A stretch of 32,434 bases of DNA from Emiliania huxleyi CCMP1516 (Eukaryota). The number at the start of each line of letters is the position of its first letter. Position 1 is the first letter of the stretch. The translations under genes and the position numbers were made by a program. The stretch is from positions 104,240-136,673 of the forward strand of contig NW_005201240.1 of NCBI RefSeq assembly GCF_000372725.1, given 5' to 3'. Of this stretch, positions 6,797-31,142 are shown piece by piece. The notes beneath the pieces were generated by a model, which saw nothing but the letters and a program-made list of their open reading frames with translations, had not been told where the DNA came from and searched no databases.

Positions 6797-6887
6797 GCTG
6801 CGGCTCGCTGCGCCGCCGCATCCTGGAGGACCCAGACCTTGCGCCGTGCGTGCTCCTTAAGACGAGCTGTGCGGGCACCCGGCGGCC

Positions 6888-7307
6888 GTGTGCAAGCGCT
6901 GGTCTCTGATCTGCGCGCCGCGCGGTGCCTTCGCTCGCCTCGTGGAGACTGCTGGCGACGCCACGTCGGCGCTGCACGCTGCTGCGCTCGGAGAGCTCAA
7001 GCGGCTGTCGGAGGCTCCTGCCACGCACGAGGGTGTCGTGGCTAGCAATCGCGCCACCCTCGACGCTGACGACCATTGCCTCTCGTTCCTGCTGGCGCGG
7101 CTCGATGAGCCCGAGGATGATGGCTGGCGCAGAGAAATCATCACCGCCCTCCTGGCCCTCGCAACCTCCTCGTCTGCGTGCGCTGAGCAGTGGCACCGGG
7201 TCGGCGGCGTTGCGGCGCTGCAAGCGCTCGCTCGAGAGACGGCGGAGGAGCGGGTGGAGAGACAGGCGGAGAGGTGCGACGAGGCGCAGCGGTCAGCCTT
7301 GGCGTGA
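6888..7307 (+). CDS. ARM-repeat-like coding fragment without a clear start (orphan exon or pseudogene)
   Basis: LSFLLARL...REIITALLALATSSSACAEQWHRVGGVAALQAL resembles an armadillo repeat. No in-frame ATG. Confidence 0.35.
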   Translation: MCKRWSLICAPRGAFARLVETAGDATSALHAAALGELKRLSEAPATHEGVVASNRATLDADDHCLSFLLARLDEPEDDGWRREIITALLALATSSSACAEQWHRVGGVAALQALARETAEERVERQAERCDEAQRSALA

Positions 7308-7435
7308 GGAGGTCCGCAGGCGGACTGCCAGGTGACTCTCATAGTGTTACGGTACCTTAGAGGCTTAGTTGTGCCAAAACACCGAAAAAATCTCTCTCCT
7401 TGTCCCCCCCCCGGGGTGTCATGTCATGAACGACC

Positions 7436-8386: not shown

Positions 8387-8525
8387 CGCTTGCGCGTCCG
8401 TGTCTGGGAGCGCGCGAGTGGAATCTTGGGGGTGTGGGCCTTGCGCCGTCACGCACGCCTCGCCTCACTCACGCCTGCGGCCTGGGCAAAGTTGAATACG
8501 GCTTTATGTTGACGTTCGAGTTCTG

Positions 8526-9259
8526 CTTAGGGGACCCCAGGGTTCTGAGGGCCGGGTTTTTTAAGACCTTTTAAGAAACGAGTGCATCTGACTATCCCGG
8601 ATCCTGCTGAACAAGCTCCTCTTGTAGCTCGATCGGTCACACCGCCATCACCGTCGGGGAGAGGGGGGACGACACTGCTTCGGCAGCGTGCACCTCGATC
8701 CTGCACCGTGTTTGTTATGACCCCCCCCAATGAACACTCCAGTGAGGGTGGGCGAGACGATCGAGGGGTCCCGTACCATGCGGAATCGACCCTATCCAGT
8801 GCTCAAGTGCTCAAGAAACGAGGAGGTTTGGGGGCTTAACTTGCCATTTAAGAGATTGCAGGCACGGGGGGTCCCTCTTTAAAGACCGTTTAAGAAACTC
8901 GGCCTCGCCGGCATGCGTCGCTGGGTTCCGCGCCGTTTTCTCCAATTGTCCAATACTGCCGTTATTGGGCACAAACCCGCCTCTGAAGACACATCTGTAA
9001 GTCTGGTGCACTGGCAGGAGCCATACTCGCATAGGGGACGCGTGCTAGCTGACTGTAGCCAGCTTCCCGGCCTGCGGCGTCTACCGGGAGAGCCTCCCGG
9101 ACCATCGACCTCGGGAGCTCTCCCGCACCGTTTAAGCGTTTAAGACCGTTTAAGGAATCGGCGGCCCAGGCAGCCTTAAAATGGGCCCGGGCCCGCTTTA
9201 AGCCGTTTAAGCCGCAGGCGCCCCAGGGCCCACCCTTTGAAGCCTAGGGGTCCCCTAAG
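8526..9259. mobile_element. Non-autonomous DNA transposon (MITE), 734 bp, 13-bp perfect TIR, 8-bp TSD
   Basis: Left end CTTAGGGGACCCC (8526-8538) is the exact reverse complement of right end GGGGTCCCCTAAG (9247-9259). GAGTTCTG flanks both sides (8518-8525, 9260-9267). Internal repeated AAG(A)CCGTTTAAG motifs; no transposase ORF. Confidence 0.9.
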
Positions 9260-9655
9260 GAGTTCTGATTGTGACCTGGTTTCAAGTAGAAATACAACAC
9301 GCTAGGAGCCGCGTTCGCTTAGTTGGGCGCTAGCGGAGGGCGAGACGATCGAGGGGTGGTCCCGTACCATGCGGAATCGACCCTGCCAGTGCAACAGCGC
9401 AACAGTTGGGCGCTCGCCACGAGCCTCTAGCCCGCTCGGCCCCCGCGGCGCGCAGTCCCAGCAAAATTGCGCCTCGCAAGCGCAGCAATCCTGCAAGCTC
9501 GGCAATGCGTGCAATGTCCACCATGCCTCATACGTACATCATGTAACAGAGTGTGCATGTATCTCCCCTGCATATCGGCACCTAAAAAATAAAACGGCAA
9601 AACACTGAGACGTCTGAGCGCTTGACAGTTGACTGTGTACTTTACTCACTGTGAC

Positions 9656-11199
9656 TCACACCGGAAGCAAACCCTTTGTGCGAGTCCTGCCACTGCCGCT
9701 GGCCCCACCGCTGCTGCTGTTGCCGTCGCGCGCCTTGGTCCGCGCGAAGGCGACGACGCCTGCCACCGCCGTGGCGACGCCCGCGCAGTTGGCCACCTAG
9801 GTTCGGGGTCAGGGTACAGGGTGAAGCTAGGTTCGGGGTCAGGGTACAGGGTGAAGCTAGGTTCGGGGTCAGGGTACGGGGTGAAGCTAGGTTCGGGGTC
9901 AGGGTTAGGGTCAGGCAAGGTCAGGGTCATGATCGAGGTTAGGGTGGGCAGTTGGCCGCCGAGAGCGGCGTCGCAAACACTGCCGCCGCAGCGCCGATGA
10001 CGAGCACGCGGCGCAGGATGTTGAGCACGGCGTGCCTAATCCCGATCACTCTCGGGCGCTCTCGGGCAGTCTCAGGCTCACCTCGGGGTGCGGAGCAAGC
10101 GGCGCACGTCGCGATGCTGACGCGTGCGAGGACGGCGAAGCTGACGCCTGCTCTCCGGCAACCTCGTGTCATCTCGTGCAATCTCGGGTCAGCTCGACGG
10201 CGAAGCTGACGCCGTTGTACAGCGCGTGCGCCGCGCCGTTGGCGGCGAATAGACAAGCGACACGCGCGGCGCCGGCGGCGCTGCCGCCGGCCGCGCTCGC
10301 CAGCAGCGGCCGCGCCTCAAGGATCAGCGCCGTTGGGAGGAGCACGAGCAGGCCGCCTAGTCTCGGGCAATCTCGGCTGATCTCGCCGCATCTCGGGTGA
10401 CCTCGGGAGCAGGAGCCGGGCTGCCGCGCGCGACGTGGTAAAAGAGGCATGCGTCCGAGCGGGCGGCGGGCGAGCCGGCATGGCGGCGCTTGAGCGACTT
10501 GGTCAGCACGGCGCGGCCTATCCATTGACCAACTGAGCTGACCAACGCATGAGGAGGGTCGAGCGACGCGGCTAGCACGGCGCGGCCAGAGAAGGCGACG
10601 TTCGACGCGAGGGCGAGGGCCCCGCCGGTGGCGCTGAAGGCGCCGCCGCCGGAGCAAGCGGTCGCGACGCCGGCGACGATCGGGAGGAGGGCGAGGAGGG
10701 TGGCGGGCCGCTCCCGCTCGCCCAGCACCAGTCCGGCAAGAGCGACCTACTCGGCTCGAGGCCTGCAGCTTGGAGAGGCGCCGTGTGGAGCGGCAGCGGC
10801 ATGCCGTGCAACTGCCGTGGTGAGAGGCTCGGCCGCCTTGACCGTCTCCACAAAGCTCGGCGCGGCGGCGGCGATGGCGGCGTTGGTGAGCAGGAAGCCG
10901 AGCGTGTATGTCAGGCTCACGCCGCGCACCGCCCGCAGCTCGACGTCACTCAGCGGGCCGCGGGAGGAGGACGGCAGCAGGCAGCGTGTGCCTGGTGCGG
11001 AGGCTCGCTCGTGCTGTGGAGAGGCAAAATTCATATTGCTTGTGGTGGTGCGATGCACACCCGCTGCTGCCACGGCAAACTGGACGGCGGCAAGGGTCGC
11101 TGGGCAGGCGAGCTCCTGCAGCACGATCTTGGCGGTCCAGATGGCCGCGATGGAGGCTGCGTACCAGGTTGCCACCAGCGGGCCGACGCGCAGCTTCAT
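9656..11199 (-). CDS. Triose-phosphate transporter (TPT/DMT) family protein, multi-exon
   Basis: ATG 11199 (MKLRVGPLVATWYAASIAAIWTAK); PSFVETVKAAEPLTT; LLPIVAGVA; ALASNVAFSGRAVLTK; NGAAHALYNGVSFAVLARVSIATHAVLNILRRVLVI; FATPLSVANCAGVATAVAGV; stop at 9656-9658. Introns include 9797-9959, 10148-10212 and 10518-10586. Confidence 0.9.
9797..9945. repeat. 30-nt tandem repeat (CTAGGTTCGGGGTCAGGGTACAGGGTGAAG, about 3.6 copies) grading into TTAGGG/TCAGGG-like hexamers; intronic
   Basis: Units start at 9797, 9827, 9857 and 9887, inside the last TPT intron. Confidence 0.9.
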
Positions 11200-11339
11200 G
11201 TCCGCTGTTGGAACACGGCCAGCCAGAAAATGCAAGTGGCGGGGAGGAGGGCGAGCCGGCGGGGTGCCAACTCCGCTCTGCCTGCGCGCGTTGGCGCGCG
11301 TGTTGAAGCGAAAAAAAAAACCGCGCGCACCGCACGTAA

Positions 11340-11432
11340 CCCGATACCGATCATCCGGCCCGCTGGGTGCGCTTCTCAGCTCCCCGGCCCTGGATGTGAG
11401 GTTGATAACTGCACTCCAAGTGCTCCAAGTAA
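11340..11432. repeat. Dispersed approx. 95-bp repeat, copy 1 (copy 2 at 15677-15777)
   Basis: CCCGATACCGATCATCCGGCCCGCTGGG...GGCCCTGGATGTGAGGTT...ACTGCACTCCAAGTGCTCCAAGTAAA recurs with small indels near 15677. Confidence 0.85.
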
Positions 11433-11979
11433 AATACTGCACAGCCGCGGGCGGGCCGGGGCGGTGATTTTGTGGAAGGAATGGCCCAGTCTAATTAGCC
11501 CTGGATAGGCAATGCATACGCCTAGTTGGGCCTCGAATCGCCCGACCGCGTCCCGGTCTTTGCCGTGGGATTTGTTTGTGACGCCACCGCACGCCCACCC
11601 CGCGGCCGGCCGGAGGCGTGCGACCGCAGCGCGCCCGCCGTCAGCTCGACGGGGCGCGCATGTCAGCGAGAGGTTTGCCGGTAGAGCGATCCCGGTCTTG
11701 TCGAACGCGAGCCCCGCGCCACGGTTGCCAGCCGTGCCTTCGCGAGAGTCGCCCTCGAGCCGCGTCCCGTCGGCACTACCCTCGTGCCTCGAGTGCGTGT
11801 CGCTTTGGTTGGCGACACCCACTCGTCGAGGGCAGTCCGGCCGACGGGAGCCTGTCGCGCGCCGGCGACGAATGCGGCGTGTGCCGGTGGTTTCGAGTTC
11901 GAAGCGACGATGGCACACAGAGCTGATGTGCCGATTTTTCTTTTGCGAGGCACTCACCTGGCCCAGGGTCTTCACGGCC

Positions 11980-13070
11980 ATGGCACCCGGCTGCTCGTCA
12001 TTAGACCCCATCCTCTCCGCGCTGGCTATCCCTCCTGCCACCACGGCTGAGGGGCTGCGCGCCGCGCAGAAGGACGAGTTCCACGGCAACGAGTTCTCCC
12101 TGCTCGTATCGCACGCACTCGGCGCTCTCGCCGGCCCGCAGTGGGTGCAGAAGCACCGCGAGGAGGTCCGGGCGGCGGCGCGCCTCGCCTACGGCGGCCT
12201 CTCGACGGCACGCCTCGCGCAGACGCCGGGCGAGGAGTACTGCGACATCACGTGCGTAGACGCGGCCACGGGCCAGCCGCTGCCGCTCCGCCGCCGCTGG
12301 ATCGCCGTCTTGATTGGGGCGCTGACGCCGTACCTTGCTCTCCGCCTCGAGGCGCGGCTCGTCTCCGCGGCCCGCTCCTCCGAGTCGCCCCTCGCCGCCG
12401 CCCTCGCCGCGCGGCTCGGCTCGTTCGGCGAGGCGCTCCGCCGGCTGCAGCTCGCTCTCTTTTGTCTCGGCCGCGCTCCCCGTCGGCTGGTCGACGTGCC
12501 GCTCGGCATCGCGCACGTGCGGCACGGCGCGCGGGCCGGGTCGGCCTCGTCGCCGTACCGTTCCCTCGGCCTGCTCATGCTCTGCCAGCTCGCCCTCTCC
12601 TCCCTCGCCCTGCTCGCAGAGCTCCGCGCCGCCGCCTCCGCCCGCAGCCGCCTCCGCGCAATCGCGTCTGCCGGCGAGCGGCGAGGGCGGGCTGCCTGCC
12701 GCCTGCCGCCGCTCCCCTCCTCAGCGTGGCCGCCCGCGCGCGCAGGAGAGACGGACAAGGAGCGGAGAGCTGCCCCTCCGCCGCCCGCCGCCGCCGCCGA
12801 GTCTGCTCGCCGGCGCACGGCTCCGCTCTGCTCGCTGTGCCTCTCTCCGCGCCGCCAGCCGACCGCGGGCGTTTGCGGCCACATCTTTTGCTGGGAGTGC
12901 TTCCACGCTTGGGCGCGGCCGCACCGCTGCCGCCGCCGCCGCCGCCCCGAAGACACGCGTCCACGCCCCCAAATCCTCTGCCGCCGCAGGTGTCCGAGAA
13001 GCCAGAGTGCCCGCTCTGCCGCGAGGCGCTGCAGCCGCAGGCGCTACGTTGCCTGCACGGAATGGTCTGA
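11980..13070 (+). CDS. PEX10: Peroxin-10 (Pex2/Pex12 N-terminal domain plus C3HC4 RING)
   Basis: LRAAQKDE and QTPGEEYCDI motifs. The RING CSLC...CGHIFCWEC..W|VSEKPECPLCR is completed by removing a GC-AG intron at 12913-12989. Stop at 13068-13070. Confidence 0.9.
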
Positions 13071-13210
13071 CTGATCTTTTTTTCAGGTTTGATCTCAAAT
13101 AAAGCAGAACCGACACGACGCCGGTGTGACTGGTGAGCGCGGTGTTCGCCTCACCACTCGCGTCCCCGACGCGCAGCGGCCAGCGCGGTGCGCGCTCGCG
13201 GCTCGGAACC

Positions 13211-14659
13211 TCAACGCTCACAAGTCTCAGCCCAGCCGCTACCGCACGCCCACGCCTCGATCTTCTTGGGCAGCAGCTGGTTCGACAGGTCCTCTCCGTG
13301 GCCTAGGCAGCCGCTCTTGCCCGCGCCCCAGGTGAAGACGGTGCCTTCGGCGGAGATGGCGAGGCTGTGGTCGGTTCCCGCCGACACAGCGACGACGCGC
13401 TGGTCAGCATAGGCCTCGACCTTCTTGGGCAGCAGCTGGTGCTGCTCGTCGCCGTGGCTCAGCTTGCCATAGAATCCTTCGCCCCAGCTCCAGACAGCGC
13501 CGTCGGCAATGAGGGCGAGGCTGTGGTGCTCTCCAGCCGACGCGGTGATGACGCGCTGGCCAGCCAAGGCCTCGATCTTCTTCGGCTCCAGCTGGGCCTG
13601 CCGGTCGCCGTGGCCCAGCTTGCCATAGCCTCCACCGCCCCAGCTGCAGACGGCGCCGTCGGCGGTGAGGGCGAGGCTGTGTTCGCCTCCAGCCGACACA
13701 GCGACGACGCGCCGCTCAACCAACGCCTCGACCTTCTTGGGCAGCAGCTGGCTCTGCTGGTCGCCGTGGCCCAAGCGGCCAGAGTTGCCACAGCCCCAGC
13801 TCCAGACGGCGCCGTCGGCGGTGATGGCGAGGCTGTGGTCGTTTGCTGCCGTCACAGCGACGACGCGCTGGCCAGCAAAGGCCTCGACCTTCTTCGGCTG
13901 CGGCTGGCGCTGCGCGTCGCCGTGGCCCAGCTTGCCCCCACCTCCATGGCCCCAGCTCCAGAGGCTGCCATCGGCGGTGAGGGCGAGACTGTTGTCGCAT
14001 CCAGCCGACACGGCGAGGACGCGCTGGGCAGCAAAGGCCTCGACCTTCTTGGGCAGCAGCTGGTCCTGCTCGTCGCCGTGGCCCAGCTGGCCGTCGCCTC
14101 CACTGCCCCAGCTCCAGACGGCCCCGTTGGCGGTGAGGGCGAGGCTGTGCGCGGTTCCAGCCGCCACGCTCACGGCGCGCTCGCCACCCAGCGGAGAAGG
14201 GAGGCGGGTCGGCGTGTTGAGCTGCGTCACGCCCTCGCCGTGGCCGAGTAGCCCAGGGAAGACTGCCTCATTGCCGCACGACGAGAGCCGCCCCTCGCCG
14301 TCGATGAAGACGCTGTGCCGCCAGCATGCCGCCGCCCTCGCCGGCGGGTTGGACTCGCGCAGCAGCGCAGCGAAGCACAGCCACTGCACGGCGCAGCTCT
14401 CGCCCTCTGGCTGCGCCGGCAGCTCGTAACCGCGCTCTTGCCCCCACAAGCGGATGCCCTCCTTCGCAAGCGAGGCGTGAAAGAGCGGCGAGACGGCCGC
14501 AACGCGAGCGATGTCGAGGGGGTCGCAGCGAGAGACGACGCGCACGAGGAGGTCGGTGGGGAGGTCGAGGAGGCGGGCGGGCGGCGGCGCGTTTGGCGAG
14601 CGAGCGGCGGTGGAGGCGGAGGCGAGGCGGCGCGAGCGGCGGCGCGGCGGGGTGGACAT
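13211..14659 (-). CDS. F-box-like plus RCC1-repeat (7-blade propeller) protein, intronless
   Basis: N-terminal LLDLPTDLLVRVVSRC..DIARVAAVS (F-box-like), then about seven 52-aa repeats of VAVSAGxxHSLALTADGAVWSWGxGxxGxLGHGD, visible as a 156-nt DNA period. Confidence 0.9.
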   Translation of the reverse strand: MSTPPRRRSRRLASASTAARSPNAPPPARLLDLPTDLLVRVVSRCDPLDIARVAAVSPLFHASLAKEGIRLWGQERGYELPAQPEGESCAVQWLCFAALLRESNPPARAAACWRHSVFIDGEGRLSSCGNEAVFPGLLGHGEGVTQLNTPTRLPSPLGGERAVSVAAGTAHSLALTANGAVWSWGSGGDGQLGHGDEQDQLLPKKVEAFAAQRVLAVSAGCDNSLALTADGSLWSWGHGGGGKLGHGDAQRQPQPKKVEAFAGQRVVAVTAANDHSLAITADGAVWSWGCGNSGRLGHGDQQSQLLPKKVEALVERRVVAVSAGGEHSLALTADGAVCSWGGGGYGKLGHGDRQAQLEPKKIEALAGQRVITASAGEHHSLALIADGAVWSWGEGFYGKLSHGDEQHQLLPKKVEAYADQRVVAVSAGTDHSLAISAEGTVFTWGAGKSGCLGHGEDLSNQLLPKKIEAWACGSGWAETCER

Positions 14660-15676
14660 CGCGAGAAAAAGAATTTAAACTCGCGCCACCCACACCCGCC
14701 ACTGGAACGGCTGCAGGGTCGTGGGGCCGCCCCAGCGGCTCCGCACCAGGCGGTTGGGCCGCGAGGGCCGCCACCGTACCCGCCGCCCCTGCCACCGCCT
14801 CCACCCCCGCCGCCGACGGGGCCGCCACCGTATGGACCCGTTCGGAATAACCTGGGGGACCCGGGACCGCCCCGCCGGAGGTTGGTGTACCCGGGAGGAG
14901 GAGATGGGGGAGGGGAGTTGCCGCGGTACGATAGCGGACCCGCCGGCGGGCCGGAGGGCCGTGGCCGGAGGGCCCCGGGGGGGGCTTGGAGTCAGTTGTC
15001 GGAGGAGGCGAGAGATGAGCTGACGCGGCCCCTGCGAATGGAGTCGGGACGTACGAGCTCACCGGGGGAAGGCCCGTCGCAATGGCAACCGGACCACCGC
15101 GACCTTCGACAGGGAGGGCCACGCCTCCCCGAGCCTGGAGAGGAGCCGGCGGAGGGGGAGGGCGAGCCGAGAACGATAGAGAGGCCGCGGGTGCGGGCGC
15201 GATTCGCCGACCAGGGAGAGCCGGCCCGACCTCCCGGGGAGGGGTGGCGACGAGACACAATGCCGCCACTCCCGCCCGGGGAGGCCCCACCCGGGCTGTC
15301 GGCTCCCTCGGGGCCAATGGGGCTAGCCGACGGAGGTGGGGCGGAGGGACCGCCCCCGAGGAAGAGACATCAGAAACGACTGCAGAGGCAGTGGGGCGAC
15401 GCCCGAAAGGCGAGCAAGAGACCGAACCAGACTGAAGATTCACCCTGAAGGGGGGGGGACGAGGCCGGGCAGTGTACACGTTAGACAGTCGTGTGTGTAC
15501 GTGACGGGTGGTGTCGTAGTGTCCGTGTCCACTAGCTCCGACGTGTAGAGGGGGCGTTCTGCAGTTAAGGGGAAACCCGGTACACGGAGCCCTCTCGGAG
15601 AACTGTGTTTACTTTAAGGCCCTTGCCCTGCGAACGCGCACCCCCCCCTAGGGGTCAGGGCTCTCTAGCCCGTAGC

Positions 15677-15777
15677 CCGATACCGATCATCCGGCCCGCT
15701 GGGGTGCGCTTCTGAGCTCCCCGGCCCTGGGGATGTGTTGTGAGGTTAATGACTGCACTCCAAGTGCTCCAAGTAAA
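15677..15777. repeat. Dispersed approx. 95-100-bp repeat, copy 2
   Basis: Near-identical to 11340-11432, same orientation. Confidence 0.85.
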
Positions 15778-16127
15778 CATTAATTCCGGGGCGGCGGGCC
15801 ACGACTCGTACTGTACACGGCCGGCACGGGGAGCAGCGCACGGGAGGACGCCTGCTCTCGGGGGCTCGGCCGTAAGGCAAGGTAAATTTCTCCAACACAA
15901 AGTGGTAGGGCCCGCAACAAAGGGGTGCAACCCTCGCGACTCCACACGGTGTATGAATCTCGTCGTGTCTATCGTGTATCGACCCGCGAACGAGATCGAG
16001 AACAGCGCTTAAAGCATCATGCCTGGTCTGCGGGACGCGGGGCTACGGACCGGGACCGGTGCGCACTCGACGGGCGGAGCAGGGGCGCCAGCGTGCCTCT
16101 CCCCTCGCCCCGCTCCTCCGCGGTCGG

Positions 16128-19100
16128 CTAGATTGCCTGGTCGAACTGGCTCGTCGTCTTGCTGAAGTGGAACGGCTTTCGGCGGTCGCGGCCTCGCACG
16201 CGCCGGTTGCAGAGCGTGCCGCACACCGCGGCGGTCGCCCCTCCTCCGACGCCCTCCGTCTCGAGGTAGACGTCGAGCAGCATCCTCGCGCGGTGCAGCA
16301 CCCAGAGGAGGTGGTACGGTGCCCCCTGCCTGTCCACCTGACAGAGACGGGGGGGCGGGGAGGGGGTTGCAACACGCCCAGGGAAGGCGACCTGAGCTGG
16401 CCCACTCGGCGGTCTGCGCCGCGCCTCCGGGCCGCTGGGGCGAGAGGAGCTCCGCCCCCAGTCTCTCGGCTCCACCTCGGCTCATCCTGGCATCTCGGCT
16501 CATCTCGGCTCCATCTCGGCTCCATCTCGGCTCGATCTCGCCTCTGCCGCCGGGGCGTTGAGCTCGGCCTCCATCTGCAGCAGCTGGTTGTCCGCCGCCT
16601 CGCCTGCAGGAGAGTTCCCGGAAGGTTCGCACTCACGCGGCTCCCCTGCGGCAGCCTGCTGCCTCCGCCCCCTCTCGCCCGCGTGCCGCTCCGCCAGCCG
16701 CAGGGAGGACAGCGAAGGCAGCAGAAGCAGGGTCGGGCTGCAGCTCGTTCAAGAAGTCCGCGTTCTACGCATCCAGAATCCGCTACACCGTGAGCTACAA
16801 CGTGCTGAGCGACGCCTGCTGCCCCTGCAGCCCCTCCAGGAAGGGCCGCTTCTCCACATTCTGCTCCGGCACCTGCGTGGGCTCGGCCGCCCTCGGATGC
16901 CGCTGCAGCTCACCGACTCGCGCTGCCTCCGATTCGATCTCGAGGCGGATGACGAGCCACTGGTCCCGGGTCCTGCGCCANNNNNNNNNNNNNNNNNNNN
17001 NNNNNNNNNNNNNNNNNNNNNNNNNNNNNNNNNNNNNNNNNNNNNNNNNNNNNNNNNNNNNNNNNNNNNNNNNNNNNNNNNNNNNNNNNNNNNNNNNNNN
17101 NNNNNNNNNNNNNNNNNNNNNNNNNNNNNNNNNNNNNNNNNNNNNNNNNNNNNNNNNNNNNNNNNNNNNNNNNNNNNNNNNNNNNNNNNNNNNNNNNNNN
17201 NNNNNNNNNNNNNNNNNNNNNNNNNNNNNNNNNNNNNNNNNNNNNNNNNNNNNNNNNNNNNNNNNNNNNNNNNNNNNNNNNNNNNNNNNNNNNNNNNNNN
17301 NNNNNNNNNNNNNNNNNNNNNNNNNNNNNNNNNNNNNNNNNNNNNNNNNNNNNNNNNNNNNNNNNNNNNNNNNNNNNNNNNNNNNNNNNNNNNNNNNNNN
17401 NNNNNNNNNNNNNNNNNNNNNNNNNNNNNNNNNNNNNNNNNNNNNNNNNNNNNNNNNNNNNNNNNNNNNNNNNNNNNNNNNNNNNNNNNNNNNNNNNNNN
17501 NNNNNNNNNNNNNNNNNNNNNNNNNNNNNNNNNNNNNTGCGAGGCGGAAGGTGCGCGAGGGGAAGAAGGGAGGAAACGGGGAGGGGAAGAAAAGAGGAGG
17601 GAGGGGGGAAGCGGGAAGGGGGGGGGGGGGGGGGTCTCTCTACCTCTGTCCAGGCGGTGAGGGCGGAGACGAGGGGCGCGGGCGGCATGAGCGGCTGCGC
17701 GGGCGGGAGCGGCGCGGTCCGGCGCTGCTCGAGGTGCTGCAGCTCCGTGGCGAGGTCGGCGCGGGCGGACACTCGCGCGGAGATCGCGTCGATGACCTGC
17801 TCGAAGCGGCGCAGGGCGGGTTAGGGTTAGGGTTAGGGTTAGGGTTAGGGTTAGGGTTAGGTTTCGATGACCTGCTCGAAGCGGCGCAGGGCGGGTGAGG
17901 GTTAGGGTTAGGGTGAGGGTTAGGGTTAGGGTTAGGGTTCGATGACCTGCTCGAAGCGGCGCAGGGCGGGCAGCGCGTGCGCAGACACGGCGCCGGACGG
18001 GAGGTCCGAGCCAAGCTCCTGCGCCTGGGACGCACTCAAGAGGGGAGGGGTGAGGCTAGCTGGACGGTGAAGAGGCGGCAGGCTCCGAGCTCGAGCTGCT
18101 TCACCCAGCGGAAAGGGACGGAGGGAAGCAGCGCCACGAGCGCCTCGTCCGGCGCCAGGCCGGAGGGGAGGGTGGCGGGCGGGAGGTCGGCGCCGGAGTC
18201 GAGGTCGAAAAGGTTGACGAGGAGGGAGGAGGGCCTGGTTGACGGAGGAGGAGGGGGGTGGCTCGGTTCGTTCCGCGCGGCCGGGACAAAGTCTCGAGAG
18301 GGGGGAGCAAGGCCTGTCGATCAGCTGCGCCGCGAGGAGTCCCGCGGAGGCGAGGCAGCAGAACTGCAGCTGCAGCTCCGCCCCTCCCTCCGCGACTTCT
18401 CCGTCGTCCGCAGCCTCGCCCTCCTCCGCCTACCCCGCCAGCAGCCCACTCCCTCGTGAGGAGGCTGCGCGTGTGACGAGGCTCCCCCCCCCCCCCCCCC
18501 CTCCCCCCCTATCCCCTATCCCCTCCCCTCCTACCACCCCTCCCCCCTCGCGCCTCTCCGTCGCCGTCTGCCTCGCCCCTCCCCGCCGCCTCCCGAGCAG
18601 CCGGCCGGAAAGTCACCCTCACGCGCAGCGGGTGCAGCCGACTCGCCTCGTCCTCCTCGGCCTCCTCGTCGCCCTCCTCCTTCTCGTCCGCCTCCTTCGC
18701 GCCGCCGCCCCCCGCCCCGCCGCTCGCCGGGGCGGCGCCGGGCCCTTCCTCGGCCGAGGCGGCGCTCGAGACCTGCAGGAAGGGGCAGGGAAGGGTCGGA
18801 GAAGTCTCGCGGACACTTCCTCCGGCGGAGGCGGCGGCGAGGCTCACTCGAGATATGGGGAGATGTGGGGGAGATATGGGGGAGGTTTATATCGGCGGCG
18901 AGGCTCACTCGCTGCCGCTTGGCGCGGCGCGGAGATGGAGAGGCGAGGGCGGTGCCTGCGGGCGGGGCGGGAGAGTGCGGTGCGGCCGGGCGGCGGCGCG
19001 GGTGTCGGCAGGCGGTGTTGGAGAGCTCAGAGAGAGATGTTCAGAGAGGGCGGTGGCGAGGGAAAGGGGTGCCGGTGTGGTGGTGTAGCCCCCCCCCCCC

Positions 19101-20249
19101 CCCCNNNNNNNNNNNNNNNNNNNNNNNNNNNNNNNNNNNNNNNNNNNNNNNNNNNNNNNNNNNNNNNNNNNNNNNNNNNNNNNNNNNNNNNNNNNNNNNN
19201 NNNNNNNNNNNNNNNNNNNNNNNNNNNNNNNNNNNNNNNNNNNNNNNNNNNNNNNNNNNNNNNNNNNNNNNNNNNNNNNNNNNNNNNNNNNNNNNNNNNN
19301 NNNNNNNNNNNNNNNNNNNNNNNNNNNNNNNNNNNNNNNNNNNNNNNNNNNNNNNNNNNNNNNNNNNNNNNNNNNNNNNNNNNNNNNNNNNNNNNNNNNN
19401 NNNNNNNNNNNNNNNNNNNNNNNNNNNNNNNNNNNNNNNNNNNNNNNNNNNNNNNNNNNNNNNNNNNNNNNNNNNNNNNNNNNNNNNNNNNNNNNNNNNN
19501 NNNNNNNNNNNNNNNNNNNNNNNNNNNNNNNNNNNNNNNNNNNNNNNNNNNNNNNNNNNNNNNNNNNNNNNNNNNNNNGTGGGTTTCTGCTCGAGGAGGC
19601 GCTGCAGCGGGAGCGAGATGGTGGTGAGCGACGCCAGCTGCGCCTGCAGCCCCTCCAGGAAGGCCCGCTTCTCCGCATTCCGCTCCGCCGCCGCCGTGCG
19701 CTCCGCCGCCCTCGCGTCCCGCTCGCCGCAAAGCGACTCGCGCTGCCTCCGCTCGAGCTCGAGGCGGTTGAGGTGGAACTGGTGCGGGTCGGCCGCCTTG
19801 GACGTGCCGCGCAGCTCCTCCGGGGCCGCCGCCGCGAATTCGCTCTCGGGCAGCAGCTCGATCCGCGGGCCCGCGTCCTGCCGAAAGTCGCGCAGGTGCG
19901 TGATCTCTCGCAGAAAGTGGTTCTTCTCGTACTGCAGATTCTGAAGCTTGAGCTCGGCGGCGTCGACCCCCGCGTTGGCCCGCTGCGTGCCCTCCTTATA
20001 CTCCCCCACCAGCTCCCACACACGACGGTTGAGCTGCTTGAGCTCGAGCAACGCCAGCCCCGAGCCGGCGACCAGCTCGGCCGCGTCGCTCCCGCCGGCG
20101 GCGCCGTCCGCCTTTCTGGCCATCGCCGCGGCCAGCTTGCCGCGAAGCGTCTCTGTGAGAGTCTCGAGCCGCTCCAGCTCCGAACCGCCCTCGGGCGAGG
20201 GGTCGGAGCCAGGCGGCATGTTGTCTGCGATTTCTTCACTCGTCCACAT
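16128..20249 (-). CDS. THOC5: THO complex subunit 5 (FMIP family), multi-exon, interrupted by two gaps
   Basis: LLELKQLNR...VDAAELKLQNLQYEKNHFLREI...IELLPESEF...DPHQFHLNRLELERRQR...SLPLQ; later exons HPLRV, LLVNLFDLDSG, PFRWVKQL, DNQLLQMEAELN, LLDVYLETEG, VRGRDRRKPF; stop at 16128. The start could be 20249 or 20219. Confidence 0.9.
16464..16540. repeat. 10-11 nt period (ATCTCGGCTCC-like) intronic tandem repeat
   Basis: Repeated CTCGGCTC(C)AT units in a THOC5 intron. Related GAGAT-core repeats occur at 10160-10190, 10360-10400, 18850-18885 and 27726-27812. Confidence 0.8.
17789..17970. repeat. Interstitial (TTAGGG)n tracts separating three copies of a 32-nt exonic segment (THOC5 intron 17797-17946)
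   Basis: TCGATGACCTGCTCGAAGCGGCGCAGGGCGGG at 17789, 17864 and 17939, with about 7 TTAGGG/TGAGGG units between each pair of copies. Confidence 0.95.
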
Positions 20250-22345: not shown

Positions 22346-22400
22346 TGTTGCTCTCGAAAAAGAATTTGAGGACCGGCCGCGTGCGAAAAAGATTTGTACC

Positions 22401-23692
22401 GGCACGGGCAGAGGAACGAGAGAAGAATATAGGGTGGATAAAGCGCCTGTTCACGGCATGGAGGGTGAGCCACACCGAACGTACCGAGCGAAGAGCCGAA
22501 CGGAAGGAGGACGGGGAAGATGACTCCGAGGAGGACGAACCAGAGAGAGAGATTTTTAGCAATACCAAACAAATCTAACACTCACACGTCATTTGGGGCC
22601 TTGGAGCCCTGTTCACGCGCGCGCGAGACGTGCAGACAGGGTTGCCAGGTGAGAGCGAATGGCGCGGTTCACGCCTCGCACAACAGAGAGAGAGATGCGC
22701 TCTGCATGGTGGGACATAAAAGAACCAGTGGAAATTCAGTTGTCAGATGTCACGATGCATCCGAAGGGGACCCCAGCGCCGGCATCATCCGTAGAGGCAC
22801 GAGTGTTCGAAGTGAGAGTGGACCTGAGCAACAACATGACCTGGAGGCAAATGATCGGAGTGGGAGTCAGAAATGTGGTCCTTGCGCGAGGGGAGCTCGA
22901 TAGACTCGAGGGGCCAGGATATGCAGCAAGGAGGGCGGAGCTGCGCCGAAAGGCGAAAGAAGCCGAGAGAACAAGGGAACGGCAGGCGGCGGCGGCGCAG
23001 GACGAGGCAGAAGAGAATGACGCGACAGAGGAGGAAGTGACAAGGGAGAGAACGACGAGAGTGGGACGGCCGCGAGGTGGCATGAAGGTTGCAGCGAGAA
23101 TCGGCGAGAGACTGCGAAAAGAGATAGGAAGAGGCAGACTCCCTAGGGTGGGCGACGGCTAGCGCATCACACTCCTCTCCTTAAAATCCCTGTGTGGTGG
23201 CGGCGTGCCGTCCTCCCATCCCTCCCTTGGGTTGTCTGTTTTCTTTCTTTTTTAGAATTGTACAGGCTACGAAATGAGACGATCCGGGGCGTTCTGGATA
23301 TCTCCGAGAGGGTGGGCACGCGTGTGTCGTGACGGACTGCTCTGGTTTGGAGGCTCCAGCGAGTATTTGTGGAGAGCGCATCGAGATTCAATCGAGATTG
23401 CGGAGCTACACGTCGAGGTCAAAACGTGCAGGTGTGAGGCCGCTGGTGCCTCCACCGTCCCTTGGAGACGACCCCACTGCCCTGGGGCGTCTTGATACGA
23501 TCAAGGGCGAGCACACGGCGCCCCGGCGCGCGTGCCCACGAAACGGTGGCACAAGGGAGGGTTTTCACTCAAAAATCGCCCCCTGCTCGTGCGGGGGCGG
23601 GGTGAAATGCAAATGCCGACCGGGCCCAGGTGATCCGTTTAGCGTTTTGCCCCGTGTCGTATGGCTCGTGCACTTTTGATAATAACTAACAA
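22401..23692 (+). mobile_element. Probable 3' fragment of a non-LTR (LINE-like) retrotransposon: ORF tail plus 3' UTR
   Basis: Purine-rich degenerate coding sequence ending RLPRVGDG* at 23162, partly duplicated at 29145-29358. It is followed by about 500 nt of hairpin-rich sequence ending in an A-rich tail (ATAATAACTAACAA). No RT or endonuclease motif is visible, so the class is inferred. Confidence 0.5.
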
Positions 23693-25131: not shown

Positions 25132-27214
25132 TCACGCTCCCTTGCTCCGTGGCTGGTACTGGAAGAAGGAGAAGGCGGTGTTTTGGCGGAGCGAGGTCTG
25201 CATCGCCTCGTAGAGACGCAGCCCCTCCTCGCGGTACACCTGGATCGGGTCGGTGCCAGAGTACGCCTTGAGGCCCGCAAAGTCCTTGACGTACCCCATC
25301 GCCTTCATGTGCGCCTTCCAGAGCGTGTCCGTCTGCGTCAGCGCGAGGAAGCGGCCGGACTCGACCGCAAGACCCGGCCGGACGCTGTCCAGCTCGGCTG
25401 CCTTGGCGCGCAACGCCTCCTGCACCGCCGCATGCGCGCGCTCCTCGGCGCCGTCGCCCTCGAGGTCGGCGGCGGTGAGCGGCACCGCGGGGAAGAACTG
25501 CTGCAGCTTGGCGAGGGTCGCCTCTGCGCCCGACGCATCCAGGTTGCTCTTCAGGATGTCGGAGGCGGTGCCGGCCGCGTGGGCGGCGAGGGTGTCGAGC
25601 ACCTCGTCGGCCGAGCCGCGCAGCACCGCGGCGCGGGTCCGGTAGGTGTCCTCCCTCTGGACGGCGAGCACCTGGGGGGGTGGGGGTGGTGGGGGTGGGG
25701 GCAGCGGGTGGGGGGGGGAGGGCGCAGCGCGGGGGGGGGGGGGTTGTTGCAGCGGCGCCTCCTCGAACTCGAAAAGCTTCTGGCGGAGCTCGTAGTAGTA
25801 GCGCTCGACCTTGGGCTGGGTCTCCTCCACCACCCGCTGCACCTGCCCCGACTCGAGGGGCTGGTCCTCGGAGATGCGCATGAAGTCGAGCAGCCCCTTG
25901 ATCTTGTCGCCGCCGAAGAGGCGGAAGATGCGGTCCTCGAGCGAGAGGAAGAAGTGCGTCGAGCCCGGGTCGCCCTGCCGGCCCGCGCGGCCGCGCAGCT
26001 GACCGTCGATCCGGCGCGAGTCGTGCAAGTTCGTGCCGATGACGTGCAGCCCTCCCGCCTGCAGCACCCGCTCCTTCTCCGGCGCGAGCTCCTCGGCGAA
26101 CTCTTCGCCGACCGCCTCGAGCGCCTCGCGCGCCTCGTCCTCGACCGACTCCTCGAACACCGCCGCCGATGAGGCCGCCACCGCGAGCAGCTCGTCCAGC
26201 GCCTAGGCGGAGAGGACCCACGCGACGCTCAGGGAAGCCTCCACGAAAGTGCCACGGCGAGCAGCCCTCGTCCGGCGCCGCGAGCTCCGCCCGCTCGTGA
26301 CCCTCGGCGTCGTCGTCCGCCGCCGCCGCCGCGCGCGACTGGGCGAAGCGCGCCGCCGCGCGGCCGACAGCGGCCTCCGCCTCCTCCGACACAGCGCGCG
26401 GGAAGAAGCCGTCGCGAGGCGGCGTGACGCCGGACAGGCCGGCGGCGGCGGCGAAGGCGGTGCGCAGGTAGAGGCGGGCCATGAAGGCGGGGTTGCCGCC
26501 GAGCAGGATGTCGGTGCCGCGCCCAGCCATGTTTGTCGAGATAGTGACGGAGCCCTCGCGGCCGGCCTGGGCGACCACCTCCGCCTCGCGCTGCGCCGCC
26601 TCGGGCGCCGCGGAGAGGACCTGCGGGGGGGGGGGGGGGGGAATCCGGAAAGGGGGGGGGGGGGAAGTGGAAGAACAAGGGAAGAGGAGGGAGGGGGGAA
26701 CCGAAGAAGAAAAGTGGGGAAACCGGAGGAAACCGGAAACGGAGGGGAAAATGGGAGGAGGCCAAGCCAGGGTTTCCAATCTCCCCTCGGGGTTGACCCC
26801 CAGCTCGGTCAGCTTGTCCCAAAAAACCTGAAACCCCCCCACCGAAGTGGTCCCAACCAGAATCGGCCGGCCGCTCCTCCGCAGCGAGAGCAGCTCGGCG
26901 AGCGCCGCGTTGGACTTCCCGCGCGTCGTCTTGAAGACCTGCGGCCGCGGCTCCGGCCAAGCGCTCAGGAGCTAGCTGCCCGGCAGGGTCTAAAAAAGGG
27001 TCCGGGTTCGGGAGTCACAGAGTCTGGGATGTCGGAGCGCAGCGACGGGAGGACGGGCGGCACGTCGACCACGTCGAGGCCGTAGATGGTCGCGAACTCC
27101 TCTGCCTCGGAGAGGGCGGTGCCCGACATGGAGGAGAGCTTGCGGAAGCGGCGGAAGAGCGACTGGTAGGTTACAGACGCGACCACCTCCGTCTCCGGCT
27201 GCACCATCAGCCCC

Positions 27215-27246
<32 letters not shown>

Positions 27247-28981
27247 GCCCCACCGGCGCCCCTCCATCACGCGGCCGGAGAACTCGTCGATGATGACCGC
27301 CTCGCCGCCCTGCACGAGGTAGGACCGCTCCTTGACGAAGAGCTCCTTCGCCTTGAGGGCGTTCGACACGTACGACGCCCACGGGTTGGTCGGCTCGTAC
27401 AGGTCGCCCACCGCGAGCGCCTGTGAACAGCTCACGCCGTGAAGAGGCGAAGTGCGCAGCGGTGGTCGCGCCTCCCGCCGCGAGAACCTTTTCGCAATCG
27501 CGCGTGCCCTTGTCGGTCAGCGAGACCGTCTGCTCCTTCTCGAAAACGTCGTAGTGAATCCCGCGCTCGAGCACCGCCGCCAGCTTGCTCGCCGCGCCTA
27601 GTCGGTGACCACACCGCCCTGTGCGAGCGAGGACAGCAGATGCACGCCGCCGCCCGCTCGCCGCGCCGAACTTGTCGACCGGAGCGTCCGTCTTGCCGGA
27701 GATGATGAGGGGCACGCGCGCCTGCAGATAGGGGGAGATAGGGGGAGATAGGGGGAGATGAGGAGCGGCACGCGCGCCCGGAGATGCAGCCGAGATGAGC
27801 CGAGAGGTAGCCGAAGTTCGTCTTGCCGGAGATGGCGAGCGGCGCGCGCGCCTCGTCGATCAGCACCGAGTCGCCCTCGTCAACAACGCAGTAGTTGAGC
27901 TCGCGCCGAAGCACCACCTGAGCCATGCAGCGGCCCCCGCACCGTGTGAGCACCGTGTGAGTGAGCAGTGGTGTAGCAGCAGCACAACCCCGCAGCGCGC
28001 GCGCCTCCTCCGCAGTCACGGCCAGGTTGTCGCGGAGATAGTCGAAGCCTACAGACAAAGCAATGCGGCCTCCGGAAACAAGAACTGTGACAAGGCGGGG
28101 TTGTCGCGGAGGCAGTCGAGGCCGAGCTCCGAGTTGGTCACATACGTCACGTCGCTCGCGTACGCCTCCCGCCGCGCCGCCGTGTCGGAGCCGGACTGGA
28201 CGAGGCCGACACTCAGCCCGAGGAAGGCGTACACCTGCCGTGCGGTCGGGACGGGCCGTGAGCAGCAGGACGGCAGGAGGAGGAGGAGCGGAGGAGGCGG
28301 AGCAGCGCGCGCTCGAGGAGCAGAGTGGAGGAGCAGGGGCAGGGGGGGGGGGCGGACCTGGCCCATCCCCTCGGCGTCGCGCCGGGCGAGGTAGTCGTTG
28401 ACCGTCACCACCATCGCGCCCTTCCCGCTTAGCGCGTTGAGGTACACCGCCCCAGTCGCCACCAAGGTCTTTCCCTCGCCGGTGCCCATCTGCGCCAGCT
28501 TGCCGTCGTTCAGCGCCATCGCGCCGACGAGCTGCACGTCGTAGTGGCGGAGGTCGAGCGTGCGCCAGGCAGCCTCGCGCACCACAGCGAACGCCTCCTC
28601 GAGCAGCTCCTCCTCCGTCTCGCCCGCCGCGAGCCGCTTCCGGAACTCGGCCGTCTTGGCGGCCAGCGCCTCGTCCTCGAGCGCCTCAATCTCGTCCTCG
28701 AGGTCGTTGATGCGAGCGACCCGCTCGGTGTACGCCATCACCGTCCGATCGTTTGCCGCCGTGAAGGCGGCCGTCTTTGGGTCACTTTTGCTGTCGCTCG
28801 CCTGCTCGCCGCCACCGCGGATGGCCTCGCTCACCTGGTCGAGCACGCCCATCGCCGCGCTCGCCGTGCGCGTGGGCGACGCCACGGCAGGACGCTGGTG
28901 CGTGCACACGCGCACGGCGGGTGCTAGCGGCAGGTAGGCGGTGGACCCGCCGACGAGCAGCGACGCCAGCGCGGCCAGCAT
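25132..28981 (-). CDS. secA: Nucleus-encoded plastid-targeted preprotein translocase SecA, about 10 introns
   Basis: [125 protein letters not shown]. The N-terminus resembles a signal peptide plus transit peptide ([18 protein letters not shown]...). Confidence 0.95.
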
Positions 28982-29144
28982 TCTGCCTAGAGACGATTCA
29001 GTGAAAACGCAAGTACAGCAAAAGAATTCATTGGTGCAAGGAAAGAAAGAGAGGGGGGCTCGCGATGACGAGTGAACTACAGGTAGTGGGGAAGGCAGCC
29101 TCGATTGCCATACAGACATGGGTGCGAAACAACGACAAGACCAA

Positions 29145-29358
29145 GGCACGGGCAGAGGAACGAGAGAAGAATATAGGGTGGATAAAGCGCCTGTTCACGG
29201 CATGGAGGGTGAGCCACACCGGACGTACCGAGCGAAGAGCCGAGCGGAAGGAAGCCGGGGAAGATGACTCCGAGGAGGACGAACCAGTGGAAATCCAGTT
29301 GTCAGATGTCACGATGCATCCGAAGGGGACCCCAGCGCCGGCATCATCCGTAGAGGCA
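29145..29358 (+). mobile_element. Second copy of the LINE-like coding fragment
   Basis: Near-identical to 22401-22543 joined directly to 22729-22799. It may extend left to about 29060. Confidence 0.7.
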
Positions 29359-29359
29359 G

Positions 29360-29750
29360 GTGCCACTCCTCTACATGGACGTCAACCTTGGCCCTGGTAC
29401 GGCGCTCGTCCCAGCCACCGTTCGCAACAAGGCCAAGCGTCACGCCTCCTTCTACGTCCTCTAGGCAAGACTGGCCGCATTGGCCTTCACGAGGACGACG
29501 ACCCGCGGCAGCTCGCGCGCAGCTTTGCTCGCACGTACCAGCTCGATGCGATGATGCGCGAGCGGCTGCAGCAGCTCATCGAAAGGTACGAGTCGGGTTG
29601 CGGGGAGACGTTTACCGCGCAGCAAGAGACGCATGGGCTGCTCCCGATGGTAGGTACATGGACGAGGTTGTGCCGGGACTTGCGGCCCAGTGCAACGCCG
29701 CCCCGTCGACGAGCGACATTTCGTCGGAGGCGGTCGCCGAGGCGCCGTGA
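29360..29750 (+). CDS. 3' exons of an uncharacterised protein; 5' part missing
   Basis: Removing GT-AG introns 29397-29464 and 29586-29653 gives VPLLYMDVNLGPGKTGRIGLHEDDDPRQLARSFARTYQLDAMMRERLQQLIERYMDEVVP...*, which reads like a globular C-terminal domain. Confidence 0.6.
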
Positions 29751-30154: not shown

Positions 30155-31142
30155 TCACCCATCCTCAGGCTCCACCGCGTCTGTCGGGCGAAGCAGCTCG
30201 AGAGCACGCTCCTCGTCTAGCGAGGGGCTTCCGGGTGCCTCGCCTCCGCTAGCACCGCTCTCTCCCCGCCCGCGAGCCAGCCGGGCGACACCAGCAAGCA
30301 CCTGCAGGCGTCAGGCCCGGAGGTTTTCACGTGCAAGGCGGCGCCCAGGAGAGGCGCGGTCGGCGAACCTTGCTGCCCCACCACACGTTGAGCGAGTTGA
30401 GAGCGAGGTTGGCGGCCATAGTGACAAAGACAACGTGCGGTCGCAACCGAGGGTCGCCGGCGCGGAGGAGGGCGATGGAGTCGCTCCACCAAAACACCGA
30501 CCCCGGCATGCCAAAGCCCCACCTGCGTGGCGGAGGCTTTGTGGGAGAAACGACTCTTCGGGACGTTCTGTGACGAGGCACGCACCGGATGATGAGGAAG
30601 GCGGCGGCAAAGCCCACGTTAGCGCAGCTGAAGGTGCGTGTGTGGGTTAAGCGACACGCAATAAGCTGCGAGCGGAGGTTGAGCAGAGGCGTCGAGGCCT
30701 CCCAGCAGAGGAAGAAGCAGGCAGCCCGCTGCTGGAAGGGCTGAAGCGCGTGCCAATAAATGAAGAGTCCCGCAGACGCGTGTAACACAAATGGCCAGCC
30801 CTGACAGGCGGCGGTGCAGAAGAACACGTCCCACACAAAGAAGGCCGCTGCGATGGCACAGGCCAGGCTGGCGCGGTCAGAAGTGCCGAAGGCCTCGTCG
30901 GCAGCCAGCGCATCGCCCGGCCAAAGATACTCTGGCAGCGCGACGAAAACTATCCCCGTCGCGAACAGAGAGCCCACCACGCGCCCGTGCCAGTCTCTCT
31001 GCTCTGACGGCGAGAGAGGCCTGTAGTGCGTGGCAAAAAGGCGCGGTGCAACGAGGATGGACGCCACGTGCAAGCCGCAGAAGAGCAACACGAACTTGCC
31101 GACGAGGTGTATAGTGGAGGAGACTGGTAGAGGTCGCTCCAT
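30155..31142 (-). CDS. TLC (TRAM/LAG1/CLN8) domain membrane protein, TMEM56-like, 3 exons
   Basis: DWHGRVVG, FFVWD, FVLH, WEASTPLLNLR, FAAAFLIIR|WGFG and LNSLNVWWGSK| motifs; two GT-AG introns; last exon 30301-30155. Confidence 0.85.

What the first reader, a model, noticed from the sequence alone, without database searches (positions are those of the whole stretch)
26177..28122. SecA introns start with an 11-33 nt copy of the next exon, which supplies the GC donor
Seen: intron 28049-28122 begins GCCTCGACTGCCTCCGCGACAACC versus next exon GCTTCGACTATCTCCGCGACAACC (21/24). Intron 27722-27851 matches its next exon at 29/33 and holds a further partial internal copy. Intron 27598-27666 matches 11/11. 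Intron 26203-26278 matches over about 26 nt with a 2-nt indel. All four use GC donors taken from the duplicated coding sequence. A gene of bacterial/plastid origin must have gained its introns after nuclear transfer. Inference: a recurring duplication-plus-filler mechanism creates introns and could explain an excess of GC-AG introns. Variable repeat length and the lack of shared TIRs argue against classical introner transposons.
Basis: partly seen in the sequence, partly recalled or inferred. Interest (0 to 1): 0.85.

Follow-up and report, generated by a model that had tools for sequence, protein, structure and literature searches.

The report
Algal introns echo the next exon
In the chalk-forming alga Emiliania huxleyi, many introns begin with a 12-40 base copy of the exon that follows them, likely the scar of recent insertions that borrowed their unusual GC splice signal from the gene's own coding sequence, which would catch new introns in the act of being made.

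Summary
Real and beyond chance. The window is Emiliania huxleyi. RNA contigs of two studies skip all four flagged stretches exactly. Of 20 supported introns in the window, 8 start with a copy of the next exon, 0 end with a copy of the previous exon, and 20 are followed by G[C/T]; the effect holds without the four flagged introns (p=0.0002) and outside secA (p=0.0006). All five echo positions in secA are absent from 5 of 5 other haptophyte-like genomic loci (an intron-poor sample), so they are likely gains. The one-sidedness does not fit random staggered-break repair. Best reading: a ~50-nt insert bringing its own AG lands in a staggered cut; an RNA source is inferred, not shown. Duplication explains only part of the GC excess: 6 of 12 non-echo introns also use GC. 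Related patterns are known (Daphnia 4-12 bp repeats; introner TSDs); this long, polar, frequent form was not found in 10 paper searches. The scan noted single echo cases in other genomes, none here. No genome was held, so the genome-wide test is open.

The parts
25132..28981 (-). Nuclear secA gene, 11 exons, 962 aa with N-terminal extension
   Evidence: Exon 1 is 100% identical to E. huxleyi CCMP1516 EMIHUDRAFT_466893; spliced alignment to transcript-derived P0002; Pfam SecA domains
28049..28122 (-). Intron 2, 74 nt, GC..TAG, phase 1; first 24 nt copy the next exon (21/24)
27722..27851 (-). Intron 4, 130 nt, GC..CAG, phase 0; 31/36 echo, second internal copy from 27777, then 10-nt tandem repeats
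27598..27666 (-). Intron 5, 69 nt, GC..TAG, phase 1; 11/11 echo (20/23 gapped)
27421..27487 (-).
   Evidence: (score 8, p=0.008)
26203..26278 (-). Intron 9, 76 nt, GC..TAG, phase 0; 24/28 echo with 2-nt indel; the database gene model reads the echo copy as exon
   Evidence: (P0001 ELAAPDELL vs P0002 ELAALDELL)
28235..28357 (-). Intron 1, GT..CAG, no echo
27918..28004 (-). Intron 3, GC..CAG, no echo; allele L019 has a ~22-nt tandem duplication over its acceptor
26939..27018 (-). Intron 7, GT..CAG, no echo
26621..26785 (-). Intron 8, no echo; donor GC in allele L019, window sequence erroneous here
25672..25758 (-). Intron 10, GC..CAG, no echo; the only position shared with another haptophyte-like locus (L014)
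   Evidence: table 8 (92 skipped, 5 letters between)
10518..10586 (-). TPT-family transporter intron 3, GC..TAG, 30/40 echo
   Evidence: transcript-type protein P0125
10357..10424 (-). Transporter intron 4, GC..TAG, 15/19 echo plus 49-nt filler of 10-nt repeats
10148..10212 (-). Transporter intron 5, GC..CAG, 17/17 echo plus 48-nt filler alike to intron 4's (34/47 ungapped)
9797..9959 (-). Inferred transporter intron 7, GC..TAG, 11/12 echo, telomere-like filler; reading frame only, not RNA-verified
17797..17946 (-). Inferred intron with a two-sided duplication (24 nt of previous exon, 8 nt of next) around CCCTAA repeats, in two tandem units; reading frame only

Best explanation
These introns start with a copy of the next exon and are likely recent gains, each likely made when a short (~50-nt) insert that already ended in AG entered a staggered cut in coding DNA, the insert most likely being an RNA-templated copy of an existing intron's 3' end. 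Shown: the introns are spliced; each is [12-40 nt copy of the next exon's start] + [filler ending CAG or TAG]; the copy starts at the donor, at a G|G[C/T] site; the downstream copy keeps the conserved protein and the intron copy decays. Inferred: repair of the staggered cut duplicates the target, the left edge of the duplicate is fixed where the insert's AG was joined and the right edge varies, as in target-primed reverse transcription (general knowledge); the lax E. huxleyi donor accepts G|GC with no further consensus, so splicing restores the reading frame at once. With time the echo fades, +5 G and CAG would be acquired, and A/T-to-G/C drift would also turn GT donors into GC. Odds: gain by insertion with target duplication about 0.8; RNA-templated source about half of that.
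For: Polarity: 8 of 20 supported introns echo at the 5' end, 0 of 20 at the 3' end (permutation p=0.93 for 3'). A simulated random staggered break with random filler gives only 22-25% 5'-only products; 9 of 10 duplication-bearing introns (two of them inferred from frame only) are 5'-only, p=3e-5, or 1e-3 under a lenient class. Gain: positions 244.1, 281.0, 299.1, 336.0, 635.0 are absent from L004, L008, L013, L014-17, L028-33 (some of these contigs cover only part of the gene); intron-free L004 groups with E. huxleyi (SH-aLRT 85, quick tree); the one shared position, 783.0, has no echo. Echo introns are a distinct, young-looking class (9 vs 12): next exon starts GC 8/9 vs 3/12 (p=0.008), TAG acceptor 6/9 vs 2/12 (p=0.03), +5 G 2/9 vs 9/12 (p=0.03). 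Filler is 47-53 nt in 6 of 9. Transporter introns 4, 5 and 6 share a filler type in phase with the AG (z=8.9, 3.7, 3.8; top 3 of 210 pairs). No TIRs.
Against: No source intron was found for any secA filler among 21 introns, and no reverse transcriptase was sought. The likeness of transporter fillers 4 and 5 is largely 10-nt periodicity: 36/49 in register but 22/29 at a 20-nt shift. TAG-rich acceptors are not what copies of mostly-CAG older introns would give. With the unverified intron dropped, the TAG and +5 G contrasts weaken to p=0.06, and all three contrasts were noticed after the fact. One two-sided duplication with telomere-type filler (17797-17946) and a 3'-side echo in L030 (score 15) show that other routes operate. 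The simulation has no branch-point rule. The comparison loci are the best 80 of 529 matches, biased to intron-poor genes, and include no close relative. No intron-free allele was seen in X3, X9 or L019.
Confidence: 0.4

Rival explanations
1. Staggered double-strand breaks repaired by end joining with locally synthesised or telomerase-added filler (the Daphnia model); the 5' bias would come from selection, because any G|GC serves as donor while the acceptor and branch point must come from filler.
For: Published for Daphnia, 33 intron/adjacent-exon repeats of 4-12 bp (PMC4202315, passages). Telomere-type fillers at 17797-17946 and 9797-9959; internal second copy in secA intron 4; a within-species tandem duplication over the intron 3 acceptor; TAG-rich new acceptors; short inverted copies of flanks in two fillers.
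Against: The simulation expects about 60% of products with a visible 3'-side echo of 4 nt or more on both-sided types and 14% 3'-only; observed 1 of 10 and 0 of 10. Inverted local templating is not significant (p=0.051; direct p=0.50). Repeats are longer than Daphnia's.
Confidence: 0.3
2. Not gain but rewriting: the 5' ends of older introns were overwritten with next-exon sequence, by aborted repair on a spliced cDNA, or by a tandem duplication across the acceptor followed by loss of the upstream part.
For: Gives strict 5' polarity and a left edge exactly at the junction without further assumptions. Allele L019 shows a duplication across an acceptor. The old shared position 297.2 has a weak 5' echo in L030 (score 6). 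No close relative was available to exclude old positions.
Against: Echo introns differ from the non-echo pool in parts such rewriting leaves untouched: next-exon start (GC 8/9 vs 3/12) and acceptor (TAG 6/9 vs 2/12). Echo positions are absent from 5 of 5 other loci, and the one shared position has no echo.
Confidence: 0.17
3. Decayed DNA-transposon introners that carried the 3' splice site and took the donor from their target-site duplication.
For: The same splice-site logic is described for Symbiodinium introners, and introners occur in Chrysochromulina (PMC9860276, passages). Near-constant filler length in 6 of 9.
Against: Duplications of 12-40 nt, variable, against 3-9 bp in that paper; no TIRs; contig depth of DNA run X9 over introns 2, 5 and 6 stays at background (81-91 vs 75-92), a rough measure only.
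Confidence: 0.08
4. Chance likeness in GC-rich sequence, or assembly artefact.
For: The window has local errors (25815-25858, 26765-26846) and is rich in simple repeats.
Against: Null maximum 8 vs scores up to 26; introns 4, 5, 6 are 128/130, 69/69, 67/67 identical in an independent metagenome contig; RNA joints match.
Confidence: 0.01

Closest known systems
Staggered-DSB intron gain in Daphnia pulex (PMC4202315; passages read)
   Same: New intron carries a direct repeat of an adjacent exon's terminal bases at its opposite end; heterogeneous filler; internal repeats; no transposon ends.
   Different: There 4-12 bp, 33 cases among 90 new introns, AT-rich, with presence/absence alleles. Here 12-40 nt, 5'-sided in 9 of 10, GC donors, no absence allele seen.
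Introners with donor co-opted from the TSD, e.g. Symbiodinium microadriaticum; TIR-less Chrysochromulina introners (PMC9860276; passages)
   Same: Insert carries one splice site, the duplicated target gives the other; mRNA restored exactly.
   Different: TSD 4 bp (3-9 bp overall) and fixed, multi-copy families, TIRs in Symbiodinium; Chrysochromulina has the opposite polarity. 'huxleyi' and 'Emiliania' do not occur in the main text; its supplements were not read.
Tandem-duplication (AG|GY) model of intron gain (recalled; named in earlier finding e1-9869788)
   Same: Donor comes from duplicated coding sequence.
   Different: That model also takes the acceptor from the duplicate, so the intron's 3' end copies the previous exon. 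Not so in 8 of 8 supported echo introns; 7 of 9 echo sites lack AG before the donor; filler does not continue the exon (p=0.78). It does fit the single 17797-17946 case.
GC-AG majority in E. huxleyi (PMC4028052; passages)
   Same: 56-65% GC donors there; 14 of 21 here.
   Different: Attributed there to genome GC content; the passages seen do not mention exon copies at intron starts.
Direct repeats near intron borders across taxa (PMC11782384; abstract and introduction)
   Same: 4-30 bp repeats near borders, read as insertion scars.
   Different: Broad survey of 213 introns of all classes, repeats anywhere near the borders; whether it includes a haptophyte was not checked.

Membership tests
U2-type spliceosomal GC-AG intron | Removed from mRNA with G[CT]..AG ends, frame restored | tested here: met
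Recently gained intron | Absent at the orthologous position in relatives | tested here: met
   0 of 5 other loci share any of 5 echo positions; sample biased to intron-poor genes, no close relative
Recently gained intron | Presence/absence polymorphism or absence in sister species | tested here: inconclusive
   No intron-free joint in X3, X9; L019 retains the introns it covers; no sister species available
Introner (DNA transposon type) | Short fixed-length TSD (3-9 bp) | tested here: not met
   12-40 nt, variable
Introner (DNA transposon type) | Terminal inverted repeats | tested here: not met
   none in 9 of 9 fillers by inspection of 14-nt ends; TIR-less introners exist
Introner (any type) | Many near-identical copies genome-wide | tested here: inconclusive
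   No genome held; contig depth at background over introns 2, 5, 6, high over intron 4's simple repeats; 3 of 21 introns share a periodic filler
Staggered-DSB neointron (Daphnia type) | Exon-terminal repeat at the opposite intron end | tested here: met
   8 of 20
Staggered-DSB neointron (Daphnia type) | No side preference beyond splice-site constraints (my inference from the model) | tested here: not met
   9 of 10 5'-only vs 22-25% simulated; null lacks branch-point rule
Pure tandem-duplication intron | Intron 3' end copies the previous exon, AG|GY inside the duplicate | tested here: not met
   0 of 20; met only by the unverified 17797-17946 case
TPRT-type retro-insertion | Variable TSD with a fixed edge at the insert's 3' end | tested here: met
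TPRT-type retro-insertion | Identifiable source RNA and an active reverse transcriptase | not testable with these tools
   No genome; no source among 21 window introns for secA fillers

The most novel reading that the evidence does not exclude
E. huxleyi seeds new introns from old ones: the AG-ending tail of an excised intron is joined to sense-strand DNA at G|GC sites, often in the same gene (partial reverse splicing at an R-loop, or target-primed reverse transcription), and copied back about 50 nt, leaving a long one-sided duplication that becomes the donor. This would be a transposon-free, self-propagating route that made a large share of this genome's introns and drove its GC-AG majority.
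Probability: 0.25. Interest if true: 0.93.

Novelty: new variant of a known kind. Interest (0 to 1): 0.72.

Why it matters
The source of new introns that are not transposon families is a long-standing open question, and E. huxleyi's GC-AG majority has only been put down to base composition (PMC4028052, passages). If about 40% of its introns keep a datable copy of their own insertion site, this genome offers thousands of time-stamped gains: echo decay gives age, and filler origin, polarity and splice-signal maturation can be measured directly with public genomes and RNA-seq. It also explains a class of gene-model errors: the database model reads the echo copy as exon at one junction.

Tried and rejected
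No whole genome was held, so no genome-wide count was made. A second RNA lay on 2728-16980 added only 2 clean introns among the 15 joints shown (59 not shown). A homologue search for the gene at 17538-20218 found nothing, Pfam gave no family and the profile search never ran, so that gene's introns stay mostly undefined. Attempts to fetch more E. huxleyi DNA through intron-repeat motifs in viral and prokaryotic collections gave no E. huxleyi-like locus among those inspected or listed; secA in viral contigs: none. An annotation-free scan at lenient scoring was swamped by simple repeats; at strict scoring it gave 13 5'-type hits in 51,161 pairs (254 per million) vs 40-94 for four control acceptors and 36 for 15 GC-rich bacterial loci, but 6 of the 13 are the known introns or the internal copy, so it is not independent. 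Rejected: whole intron being a decayed exon copy (p=0.78); local templated filler as a general rule (p=0.05-0.50); Helitron-like CTAG ends (4 of 9, no consistent hairpin by eye); sliding of the 297.2 intron to 299.1 (5 nt apart, no AG at the needed place, proximity plausible by chance; my estimate). tho_a (16678-16604) scored 7 (p=0.024) and was counted as non-echo. The careful tree did not finish; the quick tree was used. The 2013 genome paper was not held; its remarks on 10-11-bp intron repeats are recalled only.

Full report
Organism and gene. Exon 1 of the flagged gene (28981-28358, minus strand) is 100% identical to E. huxleyi CCMP1516 EMIHUDRAFT_466893 and 99% to a transcript-derived 962-aa protein, P0002, which carries the SecA domains. 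A spliced alignment of P0002 to the window gives 10 introns. RNA contigs of two studies (X12, X13) show joints at nine of them and bridge the tenth (92 skipped with 5 letters between, i.e. 87 nt); DNA runs X3 and X9 show none of these joints. All four runs that cover them differ from the window at 25815-25858 and around 26765-26846, so intron 8's donor was read from metagenome contig L019.

Observation. The four echoes are as stated: 21/24, 29/33, 11/11 and 24/28 with a 2-nt indel. In each RNA joint's ambiguous range the only G[CT]..AG placement is the GC..AG one. The downstream copy is the functional one: it reads [22 protein letters not shown] as in homologues, whereas the intron copies read [20 protein letters not shown]. 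A fifth secA intron (27487-27421) echoes at 11/14 with a GT donor.

Statistics. I assembled 20 supported introns: 14 by RNA joints or bridges (10 secA, 2 at 30302-30585, 2 at 16338-16678) and 6 from a transcript-type protein of a TPT-family transporter. Against 380 mismatched intron/exon pairs (maximum score 8), 8 of 20 score 8-26 at the 5' end and 0 of 20 exceed 3 at the 3' end. Permutation p is below 5e-6 for all 20, 1.7e-4 for the 16 not flagged, 6.2e-4 for the 10 outside secA, and 0.93 for the 3' side. All 20 next exons start G[C/T] against a background of 0.20. One more 5' echo (9959-9797) and one two-sided duplication with CCCTAA filler (17946-17797) are inferred from reading frame only.

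Gain or loss. A haptophyte-specific alignment matched 529 stretches in metagenomes, of which the best 80 were kept; 13 loci from five lineages judged genomic, plus the E. huxleyi-like L019 among them, were aligned. L004, L008 and L013 have no intron in the conserved gene body; L014-17 have up to five (297.2, 442.1, 539.0, 735.1, 783.0); L028-33 have two (227.0, 297.2). None has 244.1, 281.0, 299.1, 336.0 or 635.0. Only 783.0 is shared with E. huxleyi, and it has no echo. L008's contig is short and could be a transcript, though its cluster has a full-length member on a 148-kb contig. In the quick tree intron-free L004 falls in the E. huxleyi/Chrysotila group (SH-aLRT 85). Gain is the simplest reading; the sample favours intron-poor genes and lacks close relatives.

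Two classes. With the frame-inferred transporter intron, 9 echo and 12 non-echo introns differ: next exon starts GC 8/9 vs 3/12 (p=0.008), TAG acceptor 6/9 vs 2/12 (p=0.03), +5 G 2/9 vs 9/12 (p=0.03); on the 20 supported alone p=0.001, 0.06, 0.06. These were post hoc. All 9 echo sites are G|G[C/T]. The copies differ from their exons mostly by A/T to G/C (16 of 58 sites vs 6 of 154). GC donors are 8/9 in echo and 6/12 in non-echo introns; 5 of those 6 precede GT-starting exons. So there are likely two routes to GC: co-option at birth and later T-to-C change.

Mechanism. If a random staggered break duplicated 13-41 nt of these coding sequences around random filler, spliceable products would be 5'-only in 22-25% of cases, because an internal YAG|GY is the commonest solution. 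Observed 9 of 10 (p=3e-5; 1.4e-3 if near-5' products are pooled). The null has no branch-point rule. The anatomy, a fixed left edge at AG| with a variable right edge, is that of an insert carrying its own acceptor. Fillers are 47-53 nt in 6 of 9 (29, 94 and 151 in the others), have no TIRs, and in transporter introns 4-6 share a 10-nt repeat type in phase with the AG, though periodicity explains much of it. I commit to an RNA-templated copy of an intron 3' end (0.4); break repair plus selection (0.3) and rewriting of old donors (0.17) remain open. Against my choice: no source for secA fillers, TAG-rich acceptors, telomere-type fillers, a within-species duplication over an acceptor, and a 3'-side echo in L030 plus a weak 5' echo in L014, which show duplication-linked introns of both polarities elsewhere in haptophyte-like loci.

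Literature. Daphnia new introns carry 4-12 bp intron/exon repeats ascribed to staggered breaks (PMC4202315, passages; also PMC3488318, passages). Introners may take the donor from a 3-9 bp TSD (PMC9860276, passages; PMC11282704, passages). Repeats near borders are reported broadly (PMC11782384, abstract and introduction). Reverse splicing into R-loop DNA has been proposed (PMC10996645, passages). E. huxleyi's 56-65% GC donors are ascribed to GC content (PMC4028052, passages); PMC11347168 and 10.1101/2024.10.30.620910 (passages) and PMC9481584 (passages) add nothing on echoes. Ten searches (listings and abstract starts only for papers not named above) showed no report of this pattern in E. huxleyi. 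The library lacks most subscription papers, including the 2013 genome paper, and no supplements were read; those of PMC9860276 and of the genome paper may bear on novelty.

Verdict. A confirmed, recurrent, one-sided duplication scar marking likely young GC-AG introns; a new variant of a known kind; interest 0.72.

Noticed in passing
window 17797-17946 (-): Two tandem units, each [8 nt of next exon + CCCTAA repeats + 24 nt of previous exon], at a CAG|GT site in an open frame: a textbook two-sided duplication with telomere-type filler (repeat identity recalled).
   Followed up: partly
L019 1-78 vs window 27918-27990: Allele with a ~22-nt tandem duplication across the acceptor of secA intron 3, the extra copy followed by GC instead of GT; shows ongoing short duplications at splice junctions.
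   Followed up: partly
window 26203-26278 and 25672-25812: The database model P0001 reads the echo copy as exon (ELAAPDELL) and lacks 17 residues before intron 10 that the transcript-derived protein has.
   Followed up: yes
window 25815-25858, 26765-26846, 26993-26996: Clusters of assembly errors next to poly-C/G tracts; the laid runs agree against the window.
   Followed up: yes
L030 9702-9861 and 18981-19038: In another haptophyte-like locus, a secA intron ends with a 16/17 copy of the previous exon, and a 58-nt GT..AG stretch ends with a 31-nt copy of its upstream flank: the opposite polarity.
   Followed up: partly
L014 11005-11099 and 7457-7565: GC-donor secA intron with a weak 5' echo (score 8) and a candidate GC..AG intron with a 9/9 echo in an open frame.
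   Followed up: partly
window 16338-16541, 10036-10424, 27722-27851: A 10-11-nt CCGAGAT-type repeat occurs in 5 of 21 introns, in the opposite orientation in secA intron 4.
   Followed up: partly
window 22400-22520, 22720-22800 and 29140-29360: Shared pieces of a high-copy repeat; contig depth in DNA run X9 is thousands of times background at 29076-29357.
   Followed up: no
window 13140-14660 (-): Gene of ~153-nt internal repeats that looks like an RCC1-repeat family member (label recalled, not tested), with very many RNA contigs laid on it.
   Followed up: no
window 16800-16980 and 19620-19760: Two similar copies of a coding stretch in one gene, on either side of assembly gaps; possibly haplotypes or an internal duplication.
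   Followed up: no
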